Source of the DNA: a virus
Taxonomy: Duplodnaviria; Heunggongvirae; Uroviricota; Caudoviricetes
Length of the DNA: 64,000 bases
IMG/VR virus record: IMGVR_UViG_3300037280_000066
Location: 118,061 to 182,060 of that record
Strand: one strand, 5' to 3'
Positions 4,066 to 58,124 of this stretch are shown here, in pieces. The translations under genes were made by a program, and so were the position numbers. Every line of letters starts with the position of its first letter. Position 1 is the stretch's first letter. The notes under the pieces were generated by a model that searched no databases, had not been told where the DNA came from, and was given only the letters and a program-made list of their open reading frames with translations.

Positions 4066-4068
4066 AAC

Positions 4069-4515: not shown

Positions 4516-4530
4516 TTGCCATCACCGTCC

Positions 4531-5187
4531 CTACTTTATATCATATTCTTTTAAGTTTTTAGCCATAACGTCTAAATCTTTTCCGTAAATTTTACTAATG
4601 AAATCAATCTTATTTCTATCTTGATATGCAGGTTTATTTGCTTGAATACCTCTTACGATTATATCTACAATACTAACCTTGATATTCTTAGCAACTTTGT
4701 TATATATTTCTTCGATTTTCTCTTTTGGTAAACTGATTATATTTTCAATTTTCTTTGCATCTATAATCTTTTCATAAGCTTCGCTTAAATATAAAAGCTT
4801 AATGGCATTTTCACTATGAATGTAAAAATAACCTTCTTCTGCAAATGTCCTAGCATTAGAACATGCATGATTTAAATCTTCAAAAGTTATAGGCATTGTT
4901 TGTCCAAATCTTTCAAATCTAATAACTTTCCCTTGAGAACCTATTAAACTTAATCCACCAGTAAACAAAGATGTTACATTGATTAAGTGTTGTGGAGATA
5001 CCTGTACCTCTTCTACTTCATCAAATTGCGTATCTTTTTCTTCTTCTACAACTGATTTACCTGATGTTGTTTCCTGTGATTTTTGTTGGTTTTGACCCTG
5101 CAAAAATTGCATCATCATTGCCTTTAAATCATTTACATCATTTTTTAATTGCTCTTGCTCTACTTGTGCTTTTGTTTTTACTGCCAT
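4531..5187 (-). CDS. hypothetical protein
   Basis: Track ORF 218 aa; AAAGGGGGAA RBS. Confidence 0.55.
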   Translation of the reverse strand: MAVKTKAQVEQEQLKNDVNDLKAMMMQFLQGQNQQKSQETTSGKSVVEEEKDTQFDEVEEVQVSPQHLINVTSLFTGGLSLIGSQGKVIRFERFGQTMPITFEDLNHACSNARTFAEEGYFYIHSENAIKLLYLSEAYEKIIDAKKIENIISLPKEKIEEIYNKVAKNIKVSIVDIIVRGIQANKPAYQDRNKIDFISKIYGKDLDVMAKNLKEYDIK

Positions 5188-5229
5188 TTGTGTTTCCCCC
5201 TTTTATTCGCTTCAATTATGGTTTACCTA

Positions 5230-5266
5230 ATAAAAAAATAGGGGATAAGTCTAAGACCTATCCCCT
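5230..5266 (-). terminator. Rho-independent terminator after putative capsid gene
   Basis: Hairpin AGGGGATA...TATCCCCT at 5240-5266; plus-strand A-run 5231-5239 gives a U-run on the minus transcript. Confidence 0.6.
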
Positions 5267-5295
5267 AAATATAAAACAAAAAACCTATGGTAAGA

Positions 5296-6390
5296 TTAAA
5301 CTTTCATAATACCATATCTTGCAGATGTTGCAACTTTAACATCATATCTTTTTGAGATAGTGTAGTTGTAAGTTAAGTCAGCATTTCCTGCGAAATCTGT
5401 TACTTGATTTACTAAAGTTTCACCTTCGAAACCAATTTTAACTGGTTTATCTAATCCCATAGAGAAGAAATAAAGTGTGTTATCATCAATTCCAAATGTT
5501 AATGTGTTAGGAGCAATTTTTTGTGGAATTTCTAACAAATCAATACCCATGTAGTTTCCTAAGTGTCCTAATTTGTTATATTCTTCTCCAAGAGGGAATT
5601 TGAAGTAGTTGTCAGAAGGAATAACTCCTGCTAAAGCAGCTTTTGTTCCCATAACGTATACTTTTGTTCCTCTGTTTAATGCTTCAACTCTTGCAGCTAA
5701 TTTAACGAAAGTTGTTTGTGTGAATGAAGCTTCTTTTAAGTTAGTGTCTAATGCACCATATGTGTTGAAAATTGCGTTGTAAACATCAATAGAAATTTGT
5801 GTTTCTAATGATTGTGCAACTCTTGCGATTAACATACCCCAATCAACTTTACCTGCGATGATTCTGTAGAAATCTTCTTCAATTGTAATCATTCTAGTTT
5901 CTGGTAATAATACCATATCTGCTTCATACAATCTTTGTGGTTCATTTTGTCTAACTCCATTACTAACTTTAGACACAACAAATAATGAAGGGTTTGGGAT
6001 AGTGAACTTTAAGCTATCTCCCCATGCAATGTTTCTTGTTTCAGCAAGTCTGTAAAAATCAGTTAAAACTGTGTTTGGAACTATTACATCTAAAACTTCT
6101 GATACAAGTGCGAAAACTTCTTCTCTTACAGATGTTTTTGCAAATGCTTTTGCATCAGTTGCCTTTGAAGCAGGAAGACCTGCGTTTGTTACTGCTTGAA
6201 GCATAATTGCTTTATTAAATTTTTCATGTTTTGATTCATAACCTTCACCAGTTGCGAATTCTGCGTATCCTTGTCTTCCTTGATTATGTAAATAGTGTTT
6301 GTAAAGCTCAACACCTGCTTTTACAACATCTTTGTCCTCAGCAGAAAAGCTTCTGTATCTTGGTGTATCTAAAACTTCCATCTTAACCAT
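5296..6390 (-). CDS. putative major capsid protein
   Basis: 364 aa; AAGGAGG RBS; directly downstream (in transcription) of the scaffold-like gene; terminator follows; the capsid assignment rests on position and size only. Confidence 0.5.
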   Translation of the reverse strand: MVKMEVLDTPRYRSFSAEDKDVVKAGVELYKHYLHNQGRQGYAEFATGEGYESKHEKFNKAIMLQAVTNAGLPASKATDAKAFAKTSVREEVFALVSEVLDVIVPNTVLTDFYRLAETRNIAWGDSLKFTIPNPSLFVVSKVSNGVRQNEPQRLYEADMVLLPETRMITIEEDFYRIIAGKVDWGMLIARVAQSLETQISIDVYNAIFNTYGALDTNLKEASFTQTTFVKLAARVEALNRGTKVYVMGTKAALAGVIPSDNYFKFPLGEEYNKLGHLGNYMGIDLLEIPQKIAPNTLTFGIDDNTLYFFSMGLDKPVKIGFEGETLVNQVTDFAGNADLTYNYTISKRYDVKVATSARYGIMKV

Positions 6391-6458
6391 GTTTATTTCC
6401 TCCTTATCGAGTTTTTGAATAATTGTTATAGTACTTGTATTACATTGTTAAACTAAGA

Positions 6459-6980
6459 TTATACTGCTGTTTGAACTTCTAATCTCCATCCTGCAACTTG
6501 TTCTGTTCCTACAAAGAATAAATCAGACGCAATAACGTTGAATATAATCTTAGAACCTGTTGCTGATGCTGATGGTGTTAACTTGAATGAACCTGCTGTT
6601 GGAATTGCGTATTGTCCTGCTGTAGGTGCTGATACGAATCCAGTTGTTGATAGGTAGCAAGAATCTCCATGTAAAAGTTTTCTAGCTCTTGCAATTCTTC
6701 CTACTGGAACATAGAATTCTCTTGGGTCTACTACATCAATAGCATATGCTCCACCAATTAAGTTTCTGATAGGTTCGTCAATTACAAAAACCTCTTGTGC
6801 TGATGGTGTTGCAGGTGTTGAACAAATCCAAAGGTCACCTTGGTTAGCTACTAAACCATTTAAAACTACAAAACTACCATTGTCCATATCTACTGCGTTA
6901 TTGATTACATTTTTTAAGTAAGAATCAATGTGCTTAGATACCATTTGTCCTGCTTGAAAAAGAACGTGAGTTGTTGCCAT
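6459..6980 (-). CDS. hypothetical head-associated protein
   Basis: Track ORF 173 aa; AAGGAGG RBS; lies between scaffold-like and capsid-like genes. Confidence 0.55.
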   Translation of the reverse strand: MATTHVLFQAGQMVSKHIDSYLKNVINNAVDMDNGSFVVLNGLVANQGDLWICSTPATPSAQEVFVIDEPIRNLIGGAYAIDVVDPREFYVPVGRIARARKLLHGDSCYLSTTGFVSAPTAGQYAIPTAGSFKLTPSASATGSKIIFNVIASDLFFVGTEQVAGWRLEVQTAV

Positions 6981-21224: not shown

Positions 21225-22427
21225 TTAATCTAAAAGGTCTGATAAAGCGGCAGTATCACTACGTTCTACCTTATCTAACTTAACAAATCCAAATAACTTA
21301 TTTCCTGAAAGTCTATCAATAATTGCATTCAAACCACTATTGCTTGCAAAAATATGTTCATCTGTTTGCTTGAAATCTCCATTGAAGTAAATTATAGAAC
21401 CTTCTCCAACTCTTCCTATTAATAACTGAATATGCTCTTTTGTAAAGTTTTCAGCTTCTGAACAGTATATGATTGAGTTCTTTATGTCCCTTCCTCTTAT
21501 GAATCCAAAATGCTGTAACTCTATCTTCCTAGCATCTATCATCATCTTTAATCCCATTTCACCACCTAAATGGTCACTCATAGGACTTGCAAAAGGCATT
21601 AATTTCTCGTTGGCAGTTCCTGGCAAAAATCCGATATCCTTACTATTTCTAACCTGTACAGGGTTTCTTACCCATATTAATTTTTGATATTTCTCAGACT
21701 CTACTAAATTTAAAGCATGAGCTAACATACAAAAGTCTTTACCTGTTCCAAATTTACCTGTACATACTTTGATTGTTGTTTCTTTATCTTGCAACATATC
21801 AAATAATAATTCTTGATGTGGATTGATTGGTTTAATCTTTCCTACTGCCTTGCTAGATACTGGTGAGTACTTTATCATTACTAAACCATTATCTTCTGTC
21901 CATTTATATTTATCAATAATTTCTTGTGTGTCTGCATCTTTTATAAGTAGATATTGGTTGTGAACCATATCATAATCAACTTTTTCAATATTCTCATAGA
22001 ACCACGCTTGCTCTATATGATTTAACTCAACCTCTATGTAGCCTGTGTATTCTGTCTTCTTTTCCTTGGTATACTTCTCAGCATCAACACCTAAGATTTT
22101 AGCTTTAATTCTTACATTTAAATCATTACTAAATAACTTGGCTTGATTTTCTACTGCTGTAAGTATTATCTTATTGTCTCTTAAATCTGGATTCCATCCT
22201 GTTGGTACATTCTCATAAATGTCTTTTACAACAAACTCTACATTGGGGGAATTTTCAATTTTATGCGAAGCTCTTCTAGCTTTCCATCCAATTTCGTCAC
22301 TCTTCTTTAAACCATCAAGTTCTTCAATAACAGCTATAGGAAGAATGAAACTATAATCCAAATCTAAAACCTCTGGACTTTCTAATAATACATTTGTGTC
22401 AATAACACATTTTCCTAATTTCCCCAT
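21225..22427 (-). CDS. PIN-domain/PhoH-like ATPase (YlaK/PhoH2-type)
   Basis: N-terminal VIDTNVLL PIN signature; Walker A CTGKFGTGKDF; start set to the third ATG (MGKLGK), 9 nt after AAAGGG. Confidence 0.7.
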   Translation of the reverse strand: MGKLGKCVIDTNVLLESPEVLDLDYSFILPIAVIEELDGLKKSDEIGWKARRASHKIENSPNVEFVVKDIYENVPTGWNPDLRDNKIILTAVENQAKLFSNDLNVRIKAKILGVDAEKYTKEKKTEYTGYIEVELNHIEQAWFYENIEKVDYDMVHNQYLLIKDADTQEIIDKYKWTEDNGLVMIKYSPVSSKAVGKIKPINPHQELLFDMLQDKETTIKVCTGKFGTGKDFCMLAHALNLVESEKYQKLIWVRNPVQVRNSKDIGFLPGTANEKLMPFASPMSDHLGGEMGLKMMIDARKIELQHFGFIRGRDIKNSIIYCSEAENFTKEHIQLLIGRVGEGSIIYFNGDFKQTDEHIFASNSGLNAIIDRLSGNKLFGFVKLDKVERSDTAALSDLLD

Positions 22428-22464
22428 ATACATCATCCCTTTTCTGTTTATTCTTAAGCTCGAC

Positions 22465-22771: not shown

Positions 22772-23491
22772 CTAACAAGAATAATTTTTTATGTACCTTT
22801 TAAAAAACACACTAGAATCAAACTTATATTCATTAATACATATTTTGTAAATATTTATAAAGTGTTCTTCTAAACTTTCTGTATCTCCTACTGTATAAAT
22901 TACCTTTCTCACTTTAGGTAAATTTAACTTATATTTGTTAGGATGTTTATACACAACACCTTTGCTAAATGGATTATCACGCAATATCTTTTTTATCTGA
23001 TTTCTAGATATTATATCAATAAATTTACTTTCTTCTAATTTATTGATAACTCTCTCAATTTGCATCTCTTGCATTCCACTCAACTTCTCTAAAGACTTAT
23101 ATCTACAATAAAAGATACCCTCTTTATTAGCATATATTTTACTCAAAAACAATAAACAAAATGCTATCTTCCTCTCACCTTTTGTTACTAATTTATTTAT
23201 TGCTCTCATTTCTTCTAAGTATATCTTAACATTAACATCATCAATAAATTTGTAACTTCTATTGTATATAATATGTACAACCTCTATAACTTCCTCAATT
23301 ACTTCATTATATGGTGAGTCAATTTTTTGTGTTGTTAACCAACTCAATATATTATGAATACAACCTTCTTCTGTAGTATTAATATATTTATAATACTTGG
23401 ATAAAAGGGAGATGTTATACCCAAAAGTTAAATTTGGGTATAATCCATCTTTCAACATCTTTACTGCCCTATCCTTCTCACTAAACATCAA
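22772..23491 (-). CDS. hypothetical protein
   Basis: Track ORF 239 aa; overlaps the upstream gene by 11 nt. Confidence 0.5.
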   Translation of the reverse strand: MMFSEKDRAVKMLKDGLYPNLTFGYNISLLSKYYKYINTTEEGCIHNILSWLTTQKIDSPYNEVIEEVIEVVHIIYNRSYKFIDDVNVKIYLEEMRAINKLVTKGERKIAFCLLFLSKIYANKEGIFYCRYKSLEKLSGMQEMQIERVINKLEESKFIDIISRNQIKKILRDNPFSKGVVYKHPNKYKLNLPKVRKVIYTVGDTESLEEHFINIYKICINEYKFDSSVFFKRYIKNYSC

Positions 23492-25985
23492 ACAATTCCT
23501 CCATTCGATAATAATGACCTAAATACTCAGTATCATTCCTATCAAATGTCTCAGCAGGAAACATTATATTCATCTCCCTATTCTTCTCCAAATTCAAGAA
23601 TAAACCTTCCTCAGTTATTACCCAACAAAAGTTCTTAGCCTTACTTGGATACTTAATATAAGATAAATGTACTGCATAATTAGCTAATTCACTTGGGTTT
23701 GGAACAATAGCTTGTACAATAGCCTTATATTTCTCATATACAATATCCCAATTCACATCAGTACTTTGTATCTCTGCTTTACTATAACCCTCAAAAAATG
23801 ACTTGTATTGACTATAATTCTCAGCCATCCTGCTCTGCTTACCTAACTCTACCATCTCTTTATTGAATGCTATAAAAACTTTTTCAACTTCCTTATAAAG
23901 CCCATCATCCCAATCTTGACTTTTATCAATCATATATTCACTAGTGTCAGGACTCTTTCTTTTAAATCTTATACCCTTCTGCCATTTTTCAACATCCCAA
24001 CATAAATGATTAAGATTACAATTTGCCTTGGAAAACATCTTTAACTTGGAATAATAATATCCTGCATACTTCATGAAGTAAGGTAATGGTCTAGCATACT
24101 TAGCAATATGATAAGGTACTAACCATCTCATTCCTGTCTTAGCATAATCTATCTCCTTACCATTTATAACAGAAAGCAAGCAAACATAATCATTAAATCT
24201 TTCCTTAGTCTTTTCATCCTTGGTCTGCTTATTAAGGTAACAAGTGGCAACATTACTTATCTCACCAATCCTAGAATCAAGAGACATAAGCATATAATTG
24301 ATAACACCTTCTTTGTTATATTGAACATCTAACGCTGTTATCTTATCATCTACATCTATTACTATTGGTAGGTCACGCTGAACACCTTTACGCATTATCT
24401 CATTATTAGTAACAAATACAAGGTCACCATCTGTGTCTGCTCCATTTAATCTCTTAGTTGTTATGTCATAACTATTCAACATACAGACATTCTCTAAGTG
24501 ACTCAAGTAATCCCTTATCTGTGGACTAGATGTTTTAGCTAAAATAGTATGCTCAGATGGACATATGTGTGGATTCCTATCAATAAGATATTCTCCATTC
24601 TGCAATCCATAAGCATAAAACTCACCTTCTCCTAAACACCCTACTACTGGAAGTCCCCCTGCTGATTCCATCATCATAATAACATCAGGTATCAATATCT
24701 TGAAACAACCCTTTACCCACAACTTACCCATTTTGAATTCATCCATGTACTTCTTCAATAATGAGAATAGATACTCTTTAACCTTAAAATCTTGCAACAT
24801 TCCACTATGTAAAGTAATGGCTTTCATATATTTATTACTTGGATTGTTACCACCATTCTCCATGCCAAGAAATTTGTAAGTGTAAATAGGGTCACCTGTT
24901 ATTATATTCTCAGCCCACCTTTTACTATATTCTCCAAGTTCTATCATATCCTCTTTTTCAATCTTTAATGTTTGAAGATATTGATAATTTACTCTTGTGT
25001 ATAGAGGTTCTTCCTCAGTTAAGAAATTCCATTTAGCTATTCCTAAACAATGATTATGCTTATAAAATTTTGCTAAGTAGTTTTCCCAATCACTATAAGT
25101 ACCTGTCTTCTTGAAATACTTAACACCTTTATACATTGATTTAGTCCAAATGCATTCTACTTCATCAACACTATGTTCAACTCCCCATATATCCTTAATA
25201 TGAGTAATACCTTTGTTTCTGTAGAATCTTCTAAAATCAACCTCTATAGTTAATCCCTTTACAAAAGGCATTCTACACATAAATACACTTGGGTGTGTTG
25301 TTATACCTATTGCATCTGCCCACTTTTTTGACAATTCTGGTATATGCATTCCACTACCATCAGCAGGTGTTACTGGCACATCTTGATATCCCTCAAATAC
25401 ATTCTTAGTCTTACCATACTTAATCTCACCTGTTACTTTATCAACCCATGATGTATCTTCTTCTCTTACAGACTTAATGTGTTGGTTAGGTATCACTCTT
25501 TCAAAATCATCCACCACTATTATATAAGGAAGCTTTCCCTCAATGAAGAAACATGAGCTAAACATTAACCCTCTATATGCTGTATATTTGCTAATTACAG
25601 TTTTGTCAATCTCCAAGTCCATAGTGATTCTTTCATTTAATTTACCTTCAATCTCTTCATCAATAAATCCAATAATGGCATTTCTACACATTGATGCTGA
25701 CCTTTCAGTAAAAATAAACTTCTTACCATTTATACTAAACCCATCAGTCAATAACTTTCTCATGATATCAGTTTCATTTTGAAATCCCTTACAATCTATA
25801 AATACTATATAAGGATTAAATTCATTATCATAATCAGTAATTAACCTTATCTGCCTGAACATCATATTATCTTGTTGTTTTATGTAAAACATCTTCTCTT
25901 GTTCAAGGTTTAACTTCATTTTGTATTCTTGATTTAATACATCCCTTAACTTGAATTTTCTAATTATATATAACGTAGGAGACAT
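23481..25985 (-). CDS. large protein with NGADTDGD motif: candidate YonO-like single-subunit RNA polymerase (alternatively a primase/polymerase)
   Basis: 834 aa ORF; NGADTDGDLVFV resembles the NADFDGD Mg-binding motif of the multisubunit-RNAP beta-prime double-psi beta-barrel and of SPbeta YonO (about 839 aa); no polymerase-B or SF helicase motifs seen. Confidence 0.4.
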   Translation of the reverse strand: MSPTLYIIRKFKLRDVLNQEYKMKLNLEQEKMFYIKQQDNMMFRQIRLITDYDNEFNPYIVFIDCKGFQNETDIMRKLLTDGFSINGKKFIFTERSASMCRNAIIGFIDEEIEGKLNERITMDLEIDKTVISKYTAYRGLMFSSCFFIEGKLPYIIVVDDFERVIPNQHIKSVREEDTSWVDKVTGEIKYGKTKNVFEGYQDVPVTPADGSGMHIPELSKKWADAIGITTHPSVFMCRMPFVKGLTIEVDFRRFYRNKGITHIKDIWGVEHSVDEVECIWTKSMYKGVKYFKKTGTYSDWENYLAKFYKHNHCLGIAKWNFLTEEEPLYTRVNYQYLQTLKIEKEDMIELGEYSKRWAENIITGDPIYTYKFLGMENGGNNPSNKYMKAITLHSGMLQDFKVKEYLFSLLKKYMDEFKMGKLWVKGCFKILIPDVIMMMESAGGLPVVGCLGEGEFYAYGLQNGEYLIDRNPHICPSEHTILAKTSSPQIRDYLSHLENVCMLNSYDITTKRLNGADTDGDLVFVTNNEIMRKGVQRDLPIVIDVDDKITALDVQYNKEGVINYMLMSLDSRIGEISNVATCYLNKQTKDEKTKERFNDYVCLLSVINGKEIDYAKTGMRWLVPYHIAKYARPLPYFMKYAGYYYSKLKMFSKANCNLNHLCWDVEKWQKGIRFKRKSPDTSEYMIDKSQDWDDGLYKEVEKVFIAFNKEMVELGKQSRMAENYSQYKSFFEGYSKAEIQSTDVNWDIVYEKYKAIVQAIVPNPSELANYAVHLSYIKYPSKAKNFCWVITEEGLFLNLEKNREMNIMFPAETFDRNDTEYLGHYYRMEELFDV

Positions 25986-28842: not shown

Positions 28843-29892
28843 TTAACGGTATATTGCGAACTGCTCAATTTGGTACATGTACTTATCCCTATCTTTAGTG
28901 TTCAGATTATCTCTGTATTGCTCCAATATCTGCATGTAATATTCCATTATGTAAAGATAGTTTTTGTTATGTAGTAAAGATTGATTGCTACTATATGCTA
29001 TCTTCTCAAATCCACCAATACTGTTAATATAATCTCTATACTTATACTGTTCCTCATTTAAATGCAGATATATATTATGATACACCCACTCTATACGTTC
29101 TAATATAGGTATACGGTATCTATTATTCCCACCTCTAATATATTTGTCACCATGAAATACTGCATCTGTATGTATTATTTTAATCAGATTGTATTTGTGT
29201 TCACCTAACTCTTTTATTGTTAAGTTTATAGTTTCTTTATTGATGCCAAGACTTTCTCCTATTTGTCTTTGCGTTGGATAAGCATAATGTTCCCTATAGT
29301 AATGATAGATAGGTTCTCCTGTCTCTGCATCAGGTGTTGTCCATACTCCAAAAAAAGAATAATTAACCAACATCATTGAATAAACTGCCCACTGTGTACT
29401 GCTTAACATTGGTAAGATATTCTTTAAAAATTCTACAGGCATTGCTATGTAACCATTACCCTCTTTTACTGTTGTGTTGAGATAATTACAGTCTGAATTA
29501 TACAATATACATACATTCAATGGTGTGTTGTTCTTAATGTCATTTACCGTACCATCTTCTGATACAATGCATATTACACCCTTGTTATGTAACAATAATA
29601 GTATATCTTTTACTTTTGTTGCCCTGATTCCAGTGAATTCAGTTATCATATTGATTGTTGTGGTTGCATAATAAGCATTATTGCTACTGCTCATAAGCCA
29701 GAATAACACATACCACCCATCTACAGTATATAAATCTCTAATAAAATTCTTATTTATACTGTCATATTTGATTTTCAAGAACTTTTTGTAATCTATCCCC
29801 TTATTATCCATCTCTTTATCCCTGTAAATGTAATTAGGTTCTTTCTTACCATATAAATCCATGATATCCTCCACACTTCCGATTTTGTTCAC
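28843..29892 (-). CDS. HTH-containing protein, paralog of 59836-60864 (candidate replication initiator or regulator)
   Basis: 349 aa; GTG start behind AGGAGGG; aligns over its full length (about one-third identity by eye) with the 342-aa protein encoded in opposite orientation at 59836; HTH-like YAYPTQRQIGESLGINKETINLTIKEL. Confidence 0.7.
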   Translation of the reverse strand: MNKIGSVEDIMDLYGKKEPNYIYRDKEMDNKGIDYKKFLKIKYDSINKNFIRDLYTVDGWYVLFWLMSSSNNAYYATTTINMITEFTGIRATKVKDILLLLHNKGVICIVSEDGTVNDIKNNTPLNVCILYNSDCNYLNTTVKEGNGYIAMPVEFLKNILPMLSSTQWAVYSMMLVNYSFFGVWTTPDAETGEPIYHYYREHYAYPTQRQIGESLGINKETINLTIKELGEHKYNLIKIIHTDAVFHGDKYIRGGNNRYRIPILERIEWVYHNIYLHLNEEQYKYRDYINSIGGFEKIAYSSNQSLLHNKNYLYIMEYYMQILEQYRDNLNTKDRDKYMYQIEQFAIYR

Positions 29893-29953
29893 TTCTTACA
29901 TCCCTCCTATTTCTTGTCTATGTTTGTATATTATACTACACCCTACCTTCTTC

Positions 29954-29984
29954 ATTATACTACCTATATTGTCCATTTGTCAAG
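29954..29984 (-). promoter_or_regulatory. sigma-A-type promoter (TTGACA-18/19-TATAAT) for paralog 1
   Basis: Minus-strand read: TTGACAAATGGACAATATAGGTAGTATAAT. Confidence 0.45.
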
Positions 29985-30128
29985 TTGTTGTTATAAATTT
30001 GCCTTAAATCAACACCATTATTAATAATAACCGATAATATGATGAAAAGTGTTGAAAAATAATGAAAAACTACTAATAATAATCAAAAAACATACAAAAA
30101 TCATTGAAAAATATTTCTTGACTTTCTA

Positions 30129-30157
30129 TTATTGGCATGATATAATTGATTTGTATA
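30129..30157 (+). promoter_or_regulatory. sigma-70-type promoter (TTGACT-17-TATAAT) of the SIR2 cassette
   Basis: TTGACTTTCTATTATTGGCATGATATAAT, then AAGGAGGG RBS. Confidence 0.6.
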
Positions 30158-30179
30158 AGATAACTTAAGGAGGGAAAAG

Positions 30180-31007
30180 ATGTTACCTAGTGAAGCGTTA
30201 AATAAATTTGCTATAAAAGATATACAATCAGTGAGTATTAAAAATATGACTACTGGTGAGACAGTTATGCACTTTGACTACCCTTATGATAAGAATGATA
30301 ACTTGACTGATACTATTATTAAACAAAGTATTAATACATATGTTAGGAGAATTGTTAATGATGGTATTTCTGATACATCTATTCTAAAAGGGGTAGTAGA
30401 GGATGGCTATCATGATAACTATATTGACCAACAAAGAGTTTATAAATTTTCTACTAATGATAGTAATAGAAAGTTTGCTATTGCTATCCCTATACCTCAC
30501 AGCTTCTCTCCCCATATTAGAAATACCTTTGGTGAGATTATGGTAAATGCAGAGAGATATAATATTCCTACATTTAAATCTAGAATGCAAGAGGAAGAAT
30601 ATAAACAAAATAACTATAAAATAATTACTGATTATATTAAGTTTCAACAAAAATGTGAAGAGGGAATGTCACAACTTAGAAATAAACCCATACCTCCTTT
30701 TCCTATACCTCTTGATAATGTTATTATTCATGAGAGGTTTGAATTACCTAAAGTACTTAATAACATATTGCCTAAGTGTAAGTTCTGTGGCAAGAGACAT
30801 TTCTTCTGGATGAATGGTTACAAAAATAATATTGATGAAACTTGCTTATGTAAGAAATGTTGTGTATCATATGGTATCACTGGCAGTAAACAATATAAAG
30901 AAAATAGATTCTATGCCATTGAGAAAATTAGACAACATGTGAAAGACCATGTAAAAGATGATTTTCCTAGCAGTAAACTAATTAATTTTGAAGAGGATGG
31001 AGAATAA
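30180..31007 (+). CDS. hypothetical protein with C-terminal Cys cluster (cassette gene 1)
   Basis: 275 aa; AAGGAGGG RBS; CKFCGKRH...CLCKKCC. Confidence 0.65.
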   Translation: MLPSEALNKFAIKDIQSVSIKNMTTGETVMHFDYPYDKNDNLTDTIIKQSINTYVRRIVNDGISDTSILKGVVEDGYHDNYIDQQRVYKFSTNDSNRKFAIAIPIPHSFSPHIRNTFGEIMVNAERYNIPTFKSRMQEEEYKQNNYKIITDYIKFQQKCEEGMSQLRNKPIPPFPIPLDNVIIHERFELPKVLNNILPKCKFCGKRHFFWMNGYKNNIDETCLCKKCCVSYGITGSKQYKENRFYAIEKIRQHVKDHVKDDFPSSKLINFEEDGE

Positions 31008-31008
31008 A

Positions 31009-31335
31009 ATGGATGCCAAACAGTTAAGTGAATTACAAGAAAAGTTAAAGGAAGCAGAAAAGATAAAAGGCATAATTAATAAGATTCAACAAGTGAAAGA
31101 GATTTACACTAAGAGAGATTTAGATGTAGGTAATATACAACTTACATATGATGTTTCTGAATCATCAGGTTGGGGCAGTGATGAATATGAAAAAGATGTT
31201 TCTCATTTATTTAACTTCAATGCTACACAACTTGGCATAAGTCAACAAGAATTCACTGAGTTATATAAAACAGTTATAATGCTCACATTGAAAGAATTTG
31301 AAAAAAGATTGATTGCTTACTATGATACTATTTAA
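31009..31335 (+). CDS. hypothetical coiled-coil protein (cassette gene 2)
   Basis: Track ORF trimmed to ATG 31009 (MDAKQLSELQEK), 6 nt after GGAG; immediately after the stop of gene 1. Confidence 0.55.
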   Translation: MDAKQLSELQEKLKEAEKIKGIINKIQQVKEIYTKRDLDVGNIQLTYDVSESSGWGSDEYEKDVSHLFNFNATQLGISQQEFTELYKTVIMLTLKEFEKRLIAYYDTI

Positions 31336-31365
31336 GATAGGATGGAGAAAGGGAAGGGATAAGAA

Positions 31366-32037
31366 ATGAAAACTGGATACAGTGGTATGACTAAATCAGA
31401 AACTAGAGAGTGGAGAAATAACCTTACATATAAAGAACAATTACAGTTTGATATGGACAACATAGATACAGACTCAGAGCCATTACCTCAACACCACAGA
31501 CTGATATGTTTAACAGGGGCAGGTATTAGTAAGGAATCTGGAATTAATACTTTTGAAGAATTCCCTGAGTTGAGAGATAAACTCCATAGACATTATGCTT
31601 ATACTCATAAGGAAGATTATGAGAAAACTATTCAAGAATTCATGAAGATGATAGAAGGAAAAGAACCAAACTCTGCTCACTATGCTATGGCTCAATCTCC
31701 TTTTCAGCAAGTACCAATCATTACCCAAAATGTTGATGGACTCCATCAATTGGCAGGGAGTGAAAATGTTATAGAACTACATGGTAGACTGCCTGATACC
31801 ATAGTCCTTTATGGAGACTCAGCCCCCATGTATCAAGTTGCTATTGATTGTGTTAAAGACCTTAAGTATAATGATTCATACTTTGTTATTGTGGGAACTT
31901 CATTTACAACAACCATTGCTTCTGACTTACTGAAAATTGCTAAACAGAAAAAAGCTAAAGTATTTGTGATTAATGATAACGCAGGTGAGAGAGTACCAAA
32001 AATATTAAGTAACATTAGGCATGAATTGGGATGGTAG
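31366..32037 (+). CDS. SIR2-like (sirtuin-fold) NAD-binding protein, minimal form without Zn module
   Basis: 223 aa; LTGAGISKESGINTF, ITQNVDGLH and VIELHG motifs; no CxxC..CxxC insertion between the last two. Confidence 0.7.
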   Translation: MKTGYSGMTKSETREWRNNLTYKEQLQFDMDNIDTDSEPLPQHHRLICLTGAGISKESGINTFEEFPELRDKLHRHYAYTHKEDYEKTIQEFMKMIEGKEPNSAHYAMAQSPFQQVPIITQNVDGLHQLAGSENVIELHGRLPDTIVLYGDSAPMYQVAIDCVKDLKYNDSYFVIVGTSFTTTIASDLLKIAKQKKAKVFVINDNAGERVPKILSNIRHELGW

Positions 32038-32039
32038 TG

Positions 32040-32335
32040 AATATAATAAAAGGGTAGGTGAAGTGGGTATGGTATGGGTGTTAGCGTTAGTAGGGGCTGT
32101 TAGTGTTGTGGGTGCATTGAGTTACTATGGGTTGCTAGATGTTTGTGACTTGATTGAAGCATTGTGTGATGTGCTGAGTGAAATTGATTTTGATTAATGG
32201 TTGGAGGATGGAGTTAGGTAGGTGAAGTTTTTATGTGGTATGTTTTATTGTTTGTGCTTTTATTGTTTGATGAATAGGTAAGTGGTAAGTAGGGGCATGA
32301 TTTTTCAGGGCTAGAAATGGAAGTACCATGGTGGG
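32040..32335 (+). other. C-depleted (G+T+A) strand-skewed segment
   Basis: About 300 nt with only a few C on the plus strand; mirror counterpart (G-depleted) at 36520-36840. Confidence 0.6.
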
Positions 32336-32340
32336 GCGTT

Positions 32341-32572
32341 GGGAAATTATGTCACCTAATTATGTAAACCAGGGGCTACCATATTATGTAAACAATTTTC
32401 TTCCATATTATGTAAACCAAATATTATGTAAACAATTTCCATAAAATTATGTCAACTTTATTATGTAAACTTTATCCATTTATTATGTAACCCATATTAT
32501 GTAAACTAAAAAATAGACAAAAAAAAGAGGTATTATGTCACCCCTTTTAATTTTATTATGTCAAGTATTATG
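32341..32572 (+). repeat. iteron cluster 1: about 11 direct copies of ATTATGTAAAC (variants GTCAAC/GTCACC)
   Basis: Copies at about 32345, 32361, 32385, 32409, 32425, 32447, 32462, 32483, 32497, 32533 and 32556 with irregular 4-25 nt spacers. Confidence 0.8.
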
Positions 32573-32789
32573 GTAAATTATTTATGAAATCAAATATTTC
32601 TGTATAATGTTTTAATCTGTTAATATCATCCAAAAATAGATGTTTTTTCCTTCTCTTTTCAGCTTCCTTTAATTTGTTTTCTATTTCCTCTATCTGTATT
32701 AAAAGGTAATTTTTAACAGTGTTAATAGTTGCCATATATTGTAAACCTCCATTGTAAATTATTGTTAATAGTAGAATGTCAATAGCTAA

Positions 32790-33683
32790 TTAATGAATTT
32801 TACATAAATGGATTTTACCTTTATTAGTGTAGCAATTACGGCACTTCTTACACTTGCCAGCACAATTGACTATATCGTCAACACTTAAATTATGTTTACT
32901 AATAAATGTTAATACATCATCATAATTAGAATACGTTAAATAGATGTTAACATTTCCCTTTTTTAATAGGTCTTTTGGTATCTCATAACTACATAATGCA
33001 TCGAATGAAAGTTGTAAAGTAAAGTTTTTTGGTAACTTCTTTATGTCTTCAAACAATTCAAATTGTTTTGTATAGCTGTAAAATGTAACATTCTTATTAT
33101 CTTTAATTACTTTTAACCATTGGTTTAAATACTCTTTATTAAAGAAGTCCCCTTCTGTATGAATTCGTATTAAGTCGATATCATCGTGTAATATTTGCGT
33201 GTTTATTCTGGTAAAAAATTTGTTGCTATCTGTCAAGTATGAAAGTAAAACATTAAACCGACTTGACATATTATTTTTATAAAATTTGGACTTTTCACAG
33301 TAACAATATTTAGAGCATACCGAACAACGTTCTTTATGGCAGATATTGTTATTTTTGGTAAAATCTGATAATAGTTGAATCTCACTATTAACGTTGTCAT
33401 TAGTTAACATAAATTCATTGAATGCAGTAATACTGTTAATATTTGGAATAAAGAAGTAATAAGATTCCATTTTTTTATTCATTCCATTTTTTAGGATATC
33501 AAGTTTAGGATTATATTTCATTAACATAATTTCTTTACTTAATTTGTCTACTAATACACTTTGTTTTTGTTCTTCTGTTTTGGCAATGTATCCAGTTGTT
33601 ACCTTCTTTGTTACTACCTTTGTTGTTACTGTTTTTGTTGTTACTACCTTTGTTGTTTTAGTTGACATTGTTTTAGTTGACAT
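32790..33683 (-). CDS. Cys-rich protein with N-terminal T/K/V repeats (putative Fe-S or Zn protein)
   Basis: 297 aa; GAAGGAG RBS; MSTKT x2 then TKVVTTKTVTTKVVTKKVTT; clusters CHKERCSVCSKYCYC and CAGKCKKCRNC. Confidence 0.6.
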   Translation of the reverse strand: MSTKTMSTKTTKVVTTKTVTTKVVTKKVTTGYIAKTEEQKQSVLVDKLSKEIMLMKYNPKLDILKNGMNKKMESYYFFIPNINSITAFNEFMLTNDNVNSEIQLLSDFTKNNNICHKERCSVCSKYCYCEKSKFYKNNMSSRFNVLLSYLTDSNKFFTRINTQILHDDIDLIRIHTEGDFFNKEYLNQWLKVIKDNKNVTFYSYTKQFELFEDIKKLPKNFTLQLSFDALCSYEIPKDLLKKGNVNIYLTYSNYDDVLTFISKHNLSVDDIVNCAGKCKKCRNCYTNKGKIHLCKIH

Positions 33684-36214: not shown

Positions 36215-36445
36215 AGTTATTATGTAAACTGATAAGTGTAGAGGGATTATGTAAACTCATTATGTTAAGTTATTATGTAAAGTGATTATGTCAACTCATT
36301 ATGGAAATTTTTTATGTCAACCCCTGGCTAGGTGGCTCATAGTGCGAATTCTATGTCTTATTTACAGCAACTACAAAAACAAGCATGAGGTAAAATGGAT
36401 TCCCTACGTTTTGAAGAGGGATTATGTAAATTAAAATCCTATGTT
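36215..36445 (+). repeat. iteron cluster 2: about 7 copies of ATTATGTAAAC-type repeats plus 2 copies of TATGTYWTATTTACAGCAA
   Basis: Copies at about 36219, 36248, 36263, 36275, 36288, 36316 and 36422; secondary repeat at 36352 and 36437. Confidence 0.75.
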
Positions 36446-44560: not shown

Positions 44561-44611
44561 AAGGATAACAACTAACAACAAATTTTAAATTAAAAAAGGA
44601 GAATGATTATT

Positions 44612-45763
44612 ATGTTTAAGAAGACACAGCTTTCAATGAATTATTTAGGTTTGGTTAAGAAGGTAGTATCAGGAGCAGTAAGGTTTGATTTGGAAATACA
44701 AAGAAGAGCAGTATGGACAGAGAAACAGAAGCAAGACCTGATTGACTCATTAATTTTTGATTTCCCTGTTCCTCCATTGTACTTTGTAGATTTGAAAGAT
44801 GATTTCAAATGGGCATTAGATGGACAGCAAAGGTCAAGAGCTATGACAGAATTCTTCCAAGGCAAGTTTGTTTTGAGTGATGAACTTGACAACTATGTTG
44901 ATGATGATGGAGCAGAATACATGGTGGCAGGATTGAGCTATGCAGAACTTCCACAAACTGTACAAACTAAGTTGAATAGTACAAACGTTAACACATACAC
45001 ATTCTCTGATATATCAGAAGACGAAATAACCATTATGTTCCAAAGATTGAATGCAGGAACAGCCTTTAAGAAGATTGAGCTTATCAGAATTGACATGCCT
45101 ACAGCGTTTACAGCATTCATTAATGAAGTATCAAGAGATTCCTTCTTTGCTGATAAGGTGGCTATAAGTGACAAAGCAAGGGTACATTTTTCAGACCAAG
45201 AACTTATCCTTCAAACACTTATTATGTTCTCTAATGCTGATTCAGGCTTTACAGGTAAAGAGATTCAAGATTTTGTATCATATTACACATTGGAAGATGA
45301 TGTAAAGGACAGATTCAGAGAAGTTTTAACTTACCTTAACAAAGCATTTGTATTGAGTGAGAAGCTACTTAAAAAGACTGCTGTGCCTGTAATATTCAAG
45401 GTAGCAGAAATAGCAATAATTGAAAAAGTACAGCCAGAAGAGTTCTATACATGGACAGTTGACTTCTTCAAAGCTCAAAAAACTGGTGGCGAATATGGAA
45501 GAACAGTAAGTGCAGGAAGTGCAAGAAAAGAAAATGTAAAGAGAAGACTTGAAGTTTTACGCAATGCATTTACAAAGGAAGTTCCTGAACTCAAAAAGAT
45601 TCAAGTAATTAGAGAAAAGGCAGAAGCAAAAGCAAGAGCAGAAGCCATCAAGAACCCTCCTGTAGTAGCACCTGTAGTATCTGACATAATAACAGACCTT
45701 GCAGACGATAAGGACGTAATATTGCCAGTAGTAGCAGGACAAACTCAACAGGCACAGGTGTAA
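44612..45763 (+). CDS. DUF262/ParB-like nuclease-domain protein
   Basis: Start ATG 44612 (MFKKTQ), 10 nt after AAGGAG; LEIQRRAVWTEKQKQDLIDSLIFDFPVPPLYF...LDGQQRSRAM matches the DUF262 (GmrSD N-terminal/ParB-like) signature. Confidence 0.6.
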   Translation: MFKKTQLSMNYLGLVKKVVSGAVRFDLEIQRRAVWTEKQKQDLIDSLIFDFPVPPLYFVDLKDDFKWALDGQQRSRAMTEFFQGKFVLSDELDNYVDDDGAEYMVAGLSYAELPQTVQTKLNSTNVNTYTFSDISEDEITIMFQRLNAGTAFKKIELIRIDMPTAFTAFINEVSRDSFFADKVAISDKARVHFSDQELILQTLIMFSNADSGFTGKEIQDFVSYYTLEDDVKDRFREVLTYLNKAFVLSEKLLKKTAVPVIFKVAEIAIIEKVQPEEFYTWTVDFFKAQKTGGEYGRTVSAGSARKENVKRRLEVLRNAFTKEVPELKKIQVIREKAEAKARAEAIKNPPVVAPVVSDIITDLADDKDVILPVVAGQTQQAQV

Positions 45764-53984: not shown

Positions 53985-54236
53985 GTGAAGAGTGCAAATA
54001 AAATCATGTCTGAAACAAATAGTAATGAGCTAGGTTTGGCATTAATATACATTGAGTATGAAAGACAAATGTGTACTTGTATGAGACACAATGACCACGC
54101 TGAAACTGCAAGACTAGAAGGATTAATGCAAGGTATTTTAATTGCCACAAAGCTTTTAGGCATTAAAGACTTCTATGGAACTACAATAAGTAATTTACGT
54201 TACGCAATTCAAGAAGAGAGGAAGGAAAAAGAATAA
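53985..54236 (+). CDS. hypothetical early protein
   Basis: 83 aa; GTG start 6 nt after AAAGGAGG. Confidence 0.5.
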   Translation: MKSANKIMSETNSNELGLALIYIEYERQMCTCMRHNDHAETARLEGLMQGILIATKLLGIKDFYGTTISNLRYAIQEERKEKE

Positions 54237-54829
54237 TGCCAATAGGAGTTTTTTTAGCAAGAATGCAACCAATGCATAATGCACATCTCTATGTTGTAGA
54301 GAAAATGTGTAAAGAGAATCGTAGAGCAATAATTATTTTAGGAAGTTCTAATAAAGAAAGTATGTTGAGAAACCCTTTCCCCATAGAACTTAGAATCAAG
54401 TTCCTAAAAGAAGCCATTACAACCAATATAGGCAAACAGTATGCAGATAAGATTGAGGTGTATGAACTGCCAGATTGGACTCAAGAAGGTGATATTCAAA
54501 ATGTTAAGGAATGGGGAAAATACCTTTACTATAACATTGTAAGCAGGATTAAGTCAAAAAAGTTTGGTATGTATTTTAGTGATACACCAGAAATTATGTT
54601 AAACTGGTTTGATGCTGATATTCAGGCAAGAATTGACTTCATTTTTATGGAAAGAAGCACTATTTTTGAAGGTCTAAGTGCTACTAAAATCAGACAGGCT
54701 TTTGAAGACAATGACTTAGATTACATAAAAAAGTACTGTCCACCAGTTATTGTAGATGCATTTCCAAGTCTTAGAAACGCTTGGCTTAGAGTTTTAAAGT
54801 ATCCAATAAATGATTTTAGTATGAGTTAG
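54236..54829 (+). CDS. NMN/NaMN adenylyltransferase-like nucleotidyltransferase (cytidylyltransferase fold)
   Basis: 197 aa; GVFLARMQPMHNAHL resembles the GxFxGRFQPxHxGH motif (HNAH in place of HxGH); LSATKIR resembles ISSTxIR; start overlaps the upstream stop. Confidence 0.6.
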   Translation: MPIGVFLARMQPMHNAHLYVVEKMCKENRRAIIILGSSNKESMLRNPFPIELRIKFLKEAITTNIGKQYADKIEVYELPDWTQEGDIQNVKEWGKYLYYNIVSRIKSKKFGMYFSDTPEIMLNWFDADIQARIDFIFMERSTIFEGLSATKIRQAFEDNDLDYIKKYCPPVIVDAFPSLRNAWLRVLKYPINDFSMS

Positions 54830-54840
54830 GAGGAAGAAAG

Positions 54841-55191
54841 ATGAATAACTGTTTTGATTGTAAATATAAACAAGTAGTATTTACAGATTCAAATGAGGAA
54901 GAAATAATGACTGCTCAGATAAATAAATTCAGGAGTCAGGGCATGGAAGAAATAAATGAGGTGTTGTTTGGACACCTTATGTTTGGTAAGTGTTTAATAG
55001 GACATACAAGGGTTTTTATTGAGTTTTATAAGCAAAGAGGTAAATTACCTAAGACTGAATCAGAAACACTTAAATTATCCTGCTATGAGCCTACAGAGGG
55101 TATGAAGAAAATAGATGATTTAATATCTCAAATAGATAATATGTTAGATAAAAGGGATAATGCGAAATCAGATATACAAAAAAATCAATGA
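54841..55191 (+). CDS. hypothetical protein, frame-0 product upstream of an A7 slippery run
   Basis: 116 aa; TTAGGAGG RBS; ends CAAAAAAATCAATGA. Confidence 0.55.
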   Translation: MNNCFDCKYKQVVFTDSNEEEIMTAQINKFRSQGMEEINEVLFGHLMFGKCLIGHTRVFIEFYKQRGKLPKTESETLKLSCYEPTEGMKKIDDLISQIDNMLDKRDNAKSDIQKNQ

Positions 55192-57573: not shown

Positions 57574-57611
57574 ATAAGAGTGGTCAAACAAATTAGATGA
57601 TGGAGGTCAAT

Positions 57612-58124
57612 ATGACAATTACCCAATTGACAAGAAAATGTAAAGAGTTTGCACTAAAGAATTGGAACATGGAATTCAACTTACCTGTAGAGATAAGTAC
57701 TAAGATGTTCAAAAAACTAGGATATTATCAATACAGAAAGGATGTAAATGTTGGAATCAAAATGGTATTTGCCCAATTACTTTTTTCAGGATATTACAAA
57801 GAGGAAACTATTGATAGCGTAATACATCATGAACTTACACATTGGGCATTACATATTATGGAGAAACCTTTTAAAGATAAACATCCAGTATTTGAAGCTG
57901 AATTAAGAAGGGTTGGTGGTTCATCAACAAAGACAATAAAAATTGCAGGTAAGTTACATAATATAGTGTGTTGCAGATGTGGTGAAACAATTGCTTTTAC
58001 AACAGAAACAGGAGCAAGAAACATGTTAAAAAGAATTGATAAAGATGTTACAATTTGTTGTAGGGCTAGATATAAACACGCAGGAATTGTTGAAGTAGAA
58101 GATACTTATGAGTTAAGGAGGTAA
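57612..58124 (+). CDS. SprT-like zinc metalloprotease-domain protein
   Basis: Trimmed to ATG 57612 (MTITQLTRK), 6 nt after GGAGG; HHELTHWALH HExxH motif; C-terminal CCRCGE...CCRARYKH zinc ribbon. Confidence 0.65.
   Translation: MTITQLTRKCKEFALKNWNMEFNLPVEISTKMFKKLGYYQYRKDVNVGIKMVFAQLLFSGYYKEETIDSVIHHELTHWALHIMEKPFKDKHPVFEAELRRVGGSSTKTIKIAGKLHNIVCCRCGETIAFTTETGARNMLKRIDKDVTICCRARYKHAGIVEVEDTYELRR

What the first reader, a model, noticed from the sequence alone, without database searches (positions are those of the whole stretch)
30129..32037. Promoter-driven three-gene cassette ending in a minimal SIR2-like protein: candidate defence or NAD-directed module with two undescribed partner genes
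A near-consensus promoter (TTGACT-17-TATAAT) drives 30180-31007 (275 aa, no domain I can recognise, C-terminal Cys cluster), 31009-31335 (108 aa, coiled-coil-like) and 31366-32037 (223 aa). The last protein carries the sirtuin NAD-pocket motifs GAGIS..SGI.TF, TQNVDGLH and IELHG. It appears to lack the Zn-binding insertion between the last two motifs. That shape matches SIR2 NADase effector domains of anti-phage systems (ThsA, DSR, SIR2-HerA) better than housekeeping CobB deacetylases. The cassette sits in an accessory position, between an inverted-paralog boundary and an iteron block. The same phage also encodes an NMNAT-like enzyme at 54236, which suggests NAD metabolism may be contested.
Basis: partly seen in the sequence, partly recalled or inferred. 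Interest (0 to 1): 0.75.

Follow-up and report, generated by a model that had tools for sequence, protein, structure and literature searches.

The report
Phage mini-sirtuin lacking its zinc module
The three genes are real, but only the last is recognisable: a stripped-down ordinary-type sirtuin (an NAD-using enzyme) that this large phage gained as a separate insertion, not a three-gene anti-phage defence system.

Summary
The promoter (30118-30146), the three ORFs, the sirtuin motifs and the missing Zn module are all present.

The interpretation mostly fails.
- **Lineage.** The 223-aa protein groups by sequence and by predicted fold with canonical sirtuins (Pfam SIR2 PF02146; Sir2Af2, Sir2Tm, CobB, SIRT5). 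It hits no defence model in PADLOC and not SIR2_2.
- **Family.** It belongs to an uncharacterised clade of about 190-aa "mini-sirtuins". In these the roughly 40-residue Zn module is reduced to a 9-24-residue Cys-free linker. The clade occurs on large gut and rumen phage contigs and in some Bacillota chromosomes.
- **No conserved cassette.** A related phage carries gene 1 and gene 2 followed directly by the iteron block, with no SIR2. SIR2 plus a G-rich tail (about 975 bp) is therefore an indel. Gene 1 (a near-orphan Zn-ribbon protein) and gene 2 have almost no relatives, and gene 1 relatives sit upstream of unrelated cargo elsewhere.
- **Contexts of clade members elsewhere.** These include phage NAD salvage genes (PncA, PncB, NadD, NadE, PARG), RNA-repair genes, and ordinary chromosomal genes.

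Best reading: an early-expressed, NAD-consuming accessory sirtuin, most likely a deacylase or ADP-ribosyl transferase acting on host or phage targets. The activity is inferred, not shown.

The parts
30118..30146 (+). Sigma-70-like promoter TTGACT-17-TATAAT with an extended -10 TG, upstream of gene 1. A divergent 12/12 promoter for the 349-aa DnaD/HTH_36-like gene lies at 29983-29954 on the - strand.
   Evidence: 11 of 12 match; sequence. Consensus match only; function not shown.
30180..31007 (+). Gene 1, 275 aa. It is a near-orphan protein with a conserved N-terminal block (aa ~45-95) and a C-terminal Zn-ribbon-like CxxC...CxxCC block (aa ~170-260). The middle ~70 aa are unique to this copy.
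   Evidence: No Pfam, PHROG, PADLOC or NCBIfam family. Only itself in 5.8e9 clusters. Six remote relatives among 1.84e9 representatives. Alignment A2. Single-sequence AF2 model unusable, pLDDT 34.
31009..31335 (+). Gene 2, 108 aa, function unknown. Its start lies 1 nt after the gene 1 stop codon.
   Evidence: No family hit. Only relatives found: 62% identity in L005/L006 and 36% in L002/L003.
31366..32037 (+). Mini-sirtuin, 223 aa: a canonical-lineage SIR2 domain (Rossmann fold plus helical module) with the Zn module replaced by a short linker, and a ~42-aa N-terminal extension shared only with its closest relative (P0002).
   Evidence: PF02146 2.4e-16; phrog_2162 2.6e-22; PDB hits; clade alignment A1 with invariant N122, D124, H139; AF2 pLDDT 86.8; Foldseek.
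31336..32309 (+). An indel of about 975 bp relative to a related phage. It contains the SIR2 RBS and gene plus a G-rich tail. In L005 the same interval is 34 bp.
   Evidence: Window 31009-31327 matches L005 162-479, and window 32310-32375 matches L005 522-587.
32021..32197 (+). Possible 58-aa ORF with one hydrophobic, TM-like segment, overlapping the SIR2 stop by 17 nt. Whether it is a real gene is uncertain. It lies in a G-rich, C-poor tract (32040-32300, GC skew up to +0.78).
   Evidence: No homolog in the loci fetched up to and no family.
32347..32542 (+). Iteron block, 10 copies of TTATGTMAMC. It forms the downstream boundary of the indel and is not part of the cassette.
   Evidence: 16 matches in the window against 1.14 expected; 4 more at 36220-36321. 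The motif is also present in L005.

Best explanation
The 223-aa gene encodes a streamlined member of the canonical sirtuin lineage. The NAD-binding Rossmann domain and the helical module are kept, and the Zn-binding module has been excised. It belongs to an uncharacterised clade of about 190-aa mini-sirtuins shared by gut and rumen Bacillota and their large phages.

In this ~182-kb phage it is a discrete insertion of about 975 bp placed behind two lineage-restricted genes of unknown function. It is probably read from their host-type early promoter.

Inferred mechanism: the enzyme binds NAD+, cleaves off nicotinamide and transfers the ADP-ribosyl moiety to an acceptor. The most likely acceptor is an acyl-lysine on a host or phage protein, which would make it a deacylase and an auxiliary gene that reprogrammes the infected cell. 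Genes 1 and 2 are not obligate partners of the sirtuin.

Shown: the fold and lineage, intact N/D/H catalytic residues, loss of the Zn module, indel status, and the lack of conserved partners. Inferred: catalytic activity, substrate and timing of expression.
For: **Lineage**
- Pfam PF02146 only; PHROG 2162 'Sir2 (NAD-dependent deacetylase)'.
- The best NCBIfam models are all CobB-type deacylases.
- The PDB sequence hits listed and the Foldseek top 50 are all canonical deacylases.

**Catalytic machinery under selection**
- Across 35 clade members the following are invariant: GAGIS, S58-G59, T62-F63, N122, D124, H127, H139-G140, L148-Y149-x-D151 (the counterpart of the substrate-binding FGE loop) and G177-T178-S179.

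**Clade**
- All 120 top clusters are 155-243 aa long with a Cys-free 9-24-residue linker after HG.

**Cellular copies in housekeeping contexts**
- L178 lies between sporulation, transporter and two-component genes.
- L091, in an Erysipelothrix MAG, is followed by an ORF whose N-terminus reads like the tRNA-modification GTPase MnmE. That is my reading of the sequence, not a profile hit.
- These contexts fit a host-derived enzyme with an ordinary cellular role.

**Phage copies**
- About 17 IMG/VR loci with at least 38% identity lie on contigs of 23-250 kb.

**Link to NAD turnover**
- PncA, PncB, NadD and NadE, plus PARG, lie within 10 kb upstream of the sirtuin in several phage lineages. These are L007/L011, L012-L018/L026/L031, and more divergently L040/L056/L058.
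- The same link between a phage sirtuin and NAD salvage was noted for KVP40-like Vibrio phages (PMC5107563).

**Independence from genes 1 and 2**
-.
Against: - No biochemical data exist for any member of this clade.
- The literature states that the Zn module is required for deacetylation by canonical sirtuins (PMC12700824). A deacylase role is therefore not secure.
- The invariant Arg of the canonical 'FR' cosubstrate-loop motif is replaced by E here and by Q/E/D across the clade.
- All NCBIfam CobB equivalog cut-offs are missed by a wide margin, for example 97.9 bits against 243.
- One clade member (L177) sits next to RNA-repair-type genes, which points to a different acceptor.
- The promoter is only a consensus match in AT-rich DNA.
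Confidence: 0.55

Rival explanations
1. NADase effector. The Zn-less sirtuin would hydrolyse NAD+ as a phage-borne superinfection-exclusion or abortive-infection module, possibly sensed or regulated by genes 1 and 2 or by the overlapping 58-aa membrane ORF.
For: - The Zn module is absent, as in SIR2_2 NADases (PMC12700824).
- The gene is an accessory indel.
- Small hydrophobic ORFs follow SIR2 in the window, in L002 and in L007.
Against: - No hit to any PADLOC defence model, and no SIR2_2 hit.
- No defence sirtuin appears among the top 50 structural neighbours.
- It is a single-domain protein with no sensor domain, and genes 1 and 2 are not conserved partners.
- Clade members occur as stand-alone chromosomal genes in housekeeping contexts.
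- The small downstream ORFs are unrelated in sequence and absent from most lineages.
Confidence: 0.12
2. KptA-like RNA-repair enzyme. The sirtuin would use NAD+ to remove 2'-phosphates from cleaved RNA ends, as Iyer et al. predicted for the main clade of viral sirtuins.
For: - The prediction in PMC9503650.
- In L177 a mini-sirtuin with 51% identity is followed by RlaP, a CCA-adding/PolyA_pol-HD enzyme and an AAA_33 kinase.
- Loss of the Zn module would open up the active-site cleft.
Against: - No RNA ligase, 2H, Nudix or kinase gene lies next to the window gene, or next to its closest relatives in L002 and L004.
- The published prediction concerns a proteobacterial phage clade that is at most 31% identical to this protein.
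- The FGE-like peptide-binding loop is conserved across the clade.
Confidence: 0.15
3. Protein or nucleic-acid ADP-ribosyltransferase, working like a SirTM, used for host takeover or to inactivate a host defence protein.
For: - Zn-less sirtuins are reported as poor deacetylases, and sirtuin ADP-ribosyl transfer is an established activity.
- PARG lies in the same gene block in L007.
- In L171, a Macro-domain gene occupies the equivalent position two genes downstream of a gene 1 relative.
- The gene sits in an early-gene position.
Against: - The catalytic His is retained. From my own knowledge, not tested here, SirTMs diverge at that position.
- No Macro or ARH gene was found among the window ORFs that were scanned. 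Not every window ORF was scanned.
- The Macro observation rests on a single locus.
Confidence: 0.12
4. The three genes form a new obligate functional system that simply has very few sequenced relatives.
For: The genes are tightly spaced, lie on the same strand behind one strong promoter-like site, and have no internal terminator.
Against: - Genes 1 and 2 exist without SIR2 in L005/L006.
- SIR2 together with a gene 2 relative exists without gene 1, and the two are not adjacent, in L002.
- Gene 1 relatives exist without gene 2 or SIR2 in L171, L173 and L175.
Confidence: 0.05

Closest known systems
Canonical class U/III sirtuin deacylases (Sir2Af2 1ma3, Sir2Af1, Sir2Tm, E. coli CobB, SIRT5)
   Same: Best sequence and structural matches. 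Shares the GAGIS, TQNxD and HG motifs, the FGE-like loop, the GTS motif, and the Rossmann-plus-helical-module architecture.
   Different: - The roughly 40-residue four-Cys Zn module is replaced by a linker in which only about 5 residues separate HG from the VLYGD loop.
- FR is changed to FE.
- The catalytic core is only about 180 aa.
- All CobB equivalog cut-offs are missed.
Phage-encoded Sir2/CobB homologs (PHROG 2162; KVP40, phiSt2, T5-like phages, GAP32, My1)
   Same: - Phage-borne, single-domain and of unknown function.
- Hits phrog_2162 at 2.6e-22.
- The KVP40-type proteins also lack Zn ligands and co-occur with NAD salvage genes.
   Different: - At most 31% identity to any deposited phage sequence.
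- Those proteins keep the finger module without its cysteines, whereas here the module itself is deleted.
- Different hosts, here Bacillota-type, and different gene neighbourhoods.
Defence sirtuins of the SIR2_2/SIRim group (ThsA, DSR1/2, SIR2-HerA, SIR2-pAgo)
   Same: No Zn module, use of NAD+, and an accessory genomic position.
   Different: No profile match. Not among the structural neighbours. No fused or adjacent sensor or partner.
Phage NAD+ reconstitution pathways (NARP1-3)
   Same: Mini-sirtuins in other phages sit next to NAD salvage genes. The window encodes a NadM-like NMNAT 22 kb away.
   Different: - The window has no Nampt, PncA, PncB, NadE, PnuC or NadR homolog within 64 kb.
- A sirtuin consumes NAD+ rather than rebuilding it.
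- NARP3 is PnuC plus NadR.

Membership tests
Canonical sirtuin (Pfam SIR2 PF02146) | Profile match above the gathering threshold | tested here: met
   60.6 bits against a cut-off of 24, E 2.4e-16
Canonical sirtuin (Pfam SIR2 PF02146) | NAD-pocket and catalytic residues: GAGxS, N and D of TQNxD, and the catalytic His of HG | tested here: met
   G51-S55, N122, D124 and H139 are invariant in the 35-sequence clade alignment
Canonical sirtuin (Pfam SIR2 PF02146) | Zn-binding module with four Cys between HG and the FGE loop | tested here: not met
   About 38 residues are deleted relative to 1ma3. The linker has no Cys in any of the 120 top relatives. The AF2 model has no beta-module there.
Canonical sirtuin (Pfam SIR2 PF02146) | Conserved Arg of the cosubstrate-loop 'FR' motif | tested here: not met
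   The window has F63-E64; the clade has Q, E or D at that position
CobB-type protein deacylase (NCBIfam equivalogs) | Score above the curated equivalog cut-off | tested here: not met
   Best scores are 97.9 bits against 243 and 94.1 bits against 320
CobB-type protein deacylase (NCBIfam equivalogs) | NAD-dependent lysine deacylase activity | not testable with these tools
   Requires an enzyme assay
Defence SIR2 (SIR2_2/SIRim; ThsA, DSR, SIR2-HerA, SPARSA) | Match to SIR2_2 or PADLOC defence models | tested here: not met
   No SIR2_2 hit at E<=1. No PADLOC hit at E<=0.1.
Defence SIR2 (SIR2_2/SIRim; ThsA, DSR, SIR2-HerA, SPARSA) | Structural similarity closest to defence sirtuins | tested here: not met
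   The top 50 Foldseek PDB hits are all canonical sirtuins
Defence SIR2 (SIR2_2/SIRim; ThsA, DSR, SIR2-HerA, SPARSA) | Fused or conserved adjacent sensor or partner (SLOG, HerA, TIR, pAgo, large CTD) | tested here: not met
   Single-domain 223-aa protein. Its neighbours have no such domains and are not conserved with SIR2.
Defence SIR2 (SIR2_2/SIRim; ThsA, DSR, SIR2-HerA, SPARSA) | Protection against phage, or NAD+ depletion on infection | not testable with these tools
   Requires plaque assays and NAD+ measurements
Phage sirtuins (PHROG 2162) | Profile match, and encoded on a phage genome | tested here: met
   phrog_2162 at 2.6e-22. The window carries the phage family GP88 and a dense run of small unannotated genes. 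From my own knowledge, its RdRP-family 834-aa protein resembles the YonO-type phage RNA polymerase. The genome is about 182 kb.
Macrodomain-linked sirtuins (SirTM) | Adjacent Macro-domain gene | tested here: not met
   No Macro domain among the cassette neighbours or the other window ORFs scanned. A Macro gene follows a gene 1 relative only in L171.

The most novel reading that the evidence does not exclude
The roughly 190-aa Zn-module-less mini-sirtuins could be a distinct, biochemically new branch of the canonical sirtuin lineage that Bacillota phages deploy in the NAD+/ADP-ribose conflict. They might ADP-ribosylate or de-modify a host immune or metabolic target, or act on an NAD-derived signal. 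In this reading, loss of the Zn module and the FR->FQ/FE change mark a switch of acceptor. The position behind gene 1-family genes would be a hotspot for NAD/ADPr cargo: SIR2 in the window and Macro in L171.
Probability: 0.18. Interest if true: 0.65.

Novelty: new variant of a known kind. Interest (0 to 1): 0.36.

Why it matters
- Phage sirtuins have been annotated since KVP40 and T5, but their role is still called enigmatic (PMC5107563).
- This clade is a natural minimal version of a canonical sirtuin, with a core of about 180 aa, that has dispensed with a module reported to be required for deacetylation. Determining its activity would show what the Zn module is actually needed for.
- It would also show whether large gut phages use sirtuins to rewire host acylation, to repair RNA, or to fight NAD-based immunity.
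- For the scan itself, the result is a caution. 'SIR2 without Zn' does not by itself indicate a defence NADase, and tight gene spacing behind one promoter does not make a system.

Tried and rejected
- **Megablast of the region against GenBank phages.** No match. Gene 1 tblastn against phages also gave no match.
- **Family scans of genes 1 and 2.** PADLOC, PHROGs, Pfam and NCBIfam gave only sub-threshold noise: Longin_2, Kri1 and Lar at E 0.098. I treat these as chance.
- **Single-sequence AF2 model of gene 1.** pLDDT 34, unusable, so no fold search was attempted.
- **L004 216-aa gene.** I tested whether this gene, just downstream of SIR2 in L004, is an NMNAT like window 54236. It is not.
- **Small membrane ORF as a conserved partner of SIR2.** Rejected: sequences are unrelated and most lineages lack one.
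- **Rfam on 29800-32800.** Nothing credible.
- **Inverted repeats around the cassette.** None of 30 nt or more.
- **afdb50 fold search.** Library unavailable.
- **'Phage-only clade' idea.** I first read the GTDB scan as showing the clade is almost absent from cellular genomes.
Full report
**1. What is in the sequence**

The three + strand ORFs are at the coordinates given: 30180-31007 (275 aa), 31009-31335 (108 aa) and 31366-32037 (223 aa). Gene calls on an independent assembly of the same genome agree. That genome is about 182 kb.

The three genes form a short + strand island. A - strand replication-type block lies to the left and includes a UvrD helicase and a 349-aa HTH_36/RepL-like protein. 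More - strand genes lie to the right, including a GP88-family gene.

TTGACT-17-TATAAT with an upstream TG lies at 30118-30146 and matches 11 of 12 positions. A perfect divergent promoter for the 349-aa gene lies at 29983-29954. Promoter-like matches are frequent in this AT-rich DNA (40 found against about 30 expected). The site is therefore plausible but unproven.

Gene 1 and gene 2 are 1 nt apart. Gene 2 and SIR2 are 30 nt apart, with a purine-rich RBS-like stretch in the spacer. No + strand terminator intervenes.

**2. The sirtuin**

The 223-aa protein matches Pfam SIR2 (PF02146, 2.4e-16) and nothing else of note. It matches PHROG 2162, 'Sir2 (NAD-dependent deacetylase)'. It matches several NCBIfam CobB-type deacylase models, all far below their equivalog cut-offs. 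It matches no PADLOC defence model at E<=0.1.

Its PDB sequence matches are Sir2Af2, Sir2Af1, Sir2Tm, CobB and SIRT5. The alignment to 1ma3 jumps from query 143/chain 122 to query 145/chain 161, which means the Zn module is missing.

An AF2 model built on a 35-sequence alignment is confident (pLDDT 86.8). It shows a Rossmann fold plus a helical module, with only a short loop after the catalytic HG. The 50 best Foldseek PDB hits are all canonical sirtuins, and no ThsA, DSR2 or SIR2-HerA chain is among them. BFVD holds only five significant viral matches, all known viral sirtuins at 24% identity or less.

The inference that it therefore resembles defence NADases more than CobB-type enzymes is not.

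**3. The clade it belongs to**

A search of 5.8e9 protein clusters returned thousands of hits. The best 120 (E <= 3e-42, 46-62% identity; one 155-aa cluster identical to part of the query) are 155-243 aa long, mostly 192 aa. After HG, all of them have a Cys-free linker of 9-24 residues in place of the canonical module of about 42 residues. The window protein belongs to the shortest-linker subgroup, together with P0002-P0004 and P0112.

Across the clade the NAD-pocket and catalytic residues are invariant. So is an LYGD loop that corresponds to the canonical FGE substrate loop. The canonical 'FR' arginine is replaced by Q, E or D.

The clade is found in two settings:
- On IMG/VR viral contigs of 23-250 kb.
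- In clearly cellular contexts. L178 lies among sporulation, transporter and two-component genes. L091, from an Erysipelothrix MAG, is followed by an ORF whose N-terminus I read as MnmE-like. L010 is probably cellular as well.

No deposited phage genome has a relative above 31% identity. Many canonical-length sirtuins from phages and Bacteroidota keep the module but lack its four cysteines. The same was reported for KVP40-type phage sirtuins (PMC5107563). Loss of Zn is therefore a graded and recurrent theme, and this clade is its extreme.

**4. Is it a three-gene system?**

No.
- **Gene 1.** Only itself was found among 5.8e9 clusters, and six remote relatives among 1.84e9 representatives. They share an N-terminal block and a CxxC...CxxCC Zn-ribbon-like block.
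- **Gene 2.** One 62% relative and one 36% relative were found.
- **Related phage L005/L006.** A gene 1-like ORF and gene 2 are followed, after 34 bp, by the same iteron-bearing intergenic DNA, the 55-aa gene and the GP88 gene as in the window. SIR2 and the G-rich tail (window 31336-32309) are simply absent.
- **L002/L003.** The closest SIR2 (62% identity) has a gene 2 relative 1.7 kb upstream with five other genes between them, and no gene 1.
- **Other gene 1 relatives.** They are followed by unrelated genes. In L171 these are a 95-aa gene and then a Macro-domain protein (29.6 bits). In L173 there are three small ORFs. In L175 the gene 1 relative sits next to a tyrosine integrase.
- **Other mini-sirtuin loci.** Apart from L002/L003, none of those fetched contains a gene 1 or gene 2 homolog.

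**5. What the neighbours of clade members say**
- In several phage lineages the sirtuin lies within 10 kb downstream of a Preiss-Handler set: PncA nicotinamidase, PncB, NadD and NadE. In L007/L011 a PARG is present too.
- In L177 it is followed by RlaP, a CCA-adding/HD enzyme and an AAA_33 kinase, which is an RNA-repair-type context. This echoes the prediction by Iyer et al. that many viral sirtuins act like KptA (PMC9503650).
- In its closest relatives (L002, L004) and in the window, the neighbours are uninformative ORFans.
- The window encodes a weakly NadM-like NMNAT at 54236. No Nampt, PncA, PncB or NadE homolog was found within the 64 kb.

**6. Most likely function**

*Shown.* The protein is a canonical-lineage sirtuin fold with intact N/D/H residues. 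It lacks the Zn module. It is an independently inserted accessory gene. It has no conserved partner.

*Inferred.* It binds and cleaves NAD+ and transfers ADP-ribose to an acceptor.

I favour an acyl-lysine acceptor, which would make it a deacylase used as an auxiliary metabolic or regulatory gene early in infection. Three points support this:
- The nearest characterised relatives are deacylases.
- The peptide-binding FGE-like loop is invariant across the clade.
- Cellular copies look like ordinary stand-alone genes.

Confidence is limited. The Zn module is reported to be required for canonical deacetylation (PMC12700824), and the FR arginine is lost. Three rivals remain open, each at roughly 0.1-0.15: ADP-ribosyltransferase, KptA-like RNA repair, and plain NADase.

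**7. Novelty and score**

Phage sirtuins are a known but unexplained kind, and this is a new structural variant within it. The defence-system reading, which drove the original 0.75 score, is not supported. The most interesting remainder is the mini-sirtuin clade itself, together with the hint that NAD/ADPr cargo (SIR2 here, Macro in L171) sits behind gene 1-family genes. That hint rests on two loci only.

Noticed in passing
window 23481-25985 (-): An 834-aa protein matching Pfam RdRP PF05183 (2e-15). From my own knowledge this family includes the YonO-type single-subunit RNA polymerase of SPbeta-like phages, so the phage may transcribe its later genes itself.
   Followed up: no
window 28843-29892 (-) and 59836-60864 (+); also 22772-23491 (-): Two inverted paralogs, 44% identical over 340 aa, of an HTH_36/DnaD_N/RepL-like putative replication initiator lie about 30 kb apart. 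A third, shorter HTH_36 protein is also present.
   Followed up: partly
window 32347-32542 and 36220-36321: Iterons TTATGTMAMC: 10 same-strand copies in one block and 4 in a second block 3.7 kb away, with 16 matches in the window against 1.1 expected. The motif is conserved in the related phage L005. It could be a candidate origin or a regulator-binding array.
   Followed up: partly
window 32040-32300: A strongly G-rich, C-poor tract (GC skew up to +0.78) downstream of SIR2 and inside the indel. It contains a 58-aa ORF with a TM-like segment that overlaps the SIR2 stop. No Rfam match and no homolog. Unexplained.
   Followed up: partly
L007/L008/L011 about 735-6732; L026 and L031; more divergent in L040, L056, L058: Large phage contigs (up to 206 kb) encode a full Preiss-Handler NAD salvage set: PncA, PncB, NadD and NadE. 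L007 also has PARG and DUF5662. The set lies just upstream of a mini-sirtuin. It differs from the published NARP1-3 pathways as summarised in PMC13464706.
   Followed up: partly
L177 8001-11579: A mini-sirtuin with 51% identity is followed by RlaP, a PolyA_pol/HD CCA-adding-type enzyme and an AAA_33 kinase on a 199-kb phage-like contig. This is an RNA-repair-type neighbourhood.
   Followed up: no
L171 408-1773: A gene 1 relative (182 aa) is followed by a 95-aa ORF and a Macro-domain protein (PF01661, 29.6 bits). This is the same relative position that SIR2 occupies in the window. An integrase-like ORF starts downstream.
   Followed up: partly
window 54236-55191 and 57597-58124; L004 11275-11583 and 13693-14274: The NadM-like NMNAT at 54236 is followed by an Imm3-like 116-aa gene. 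Homologs of that gene and of the window's SprT-like gene lie just downstream of the mini-sirtuin in L004. This suggests shared accessory cargo between otherwise unrelated phages.
   Followed up: partly
window 44603-45763 (+), 21225-22436 (-), 61445-62362 (+): The phage carries a GmrSD_N-domain protein (a type IV restriction-like N-terminal domain), a PIN-PhoH fusion, and an SPFH/Band 7 protein.
   Followed up: no
L049-L053, L057, L069, L129, L144 and others: Many canonical-length sirtuins on viral and Bacteroidota contigs keep the ~42-residue module between HG and FGE but have none of the four Zn cysteines.
   Followed up: no
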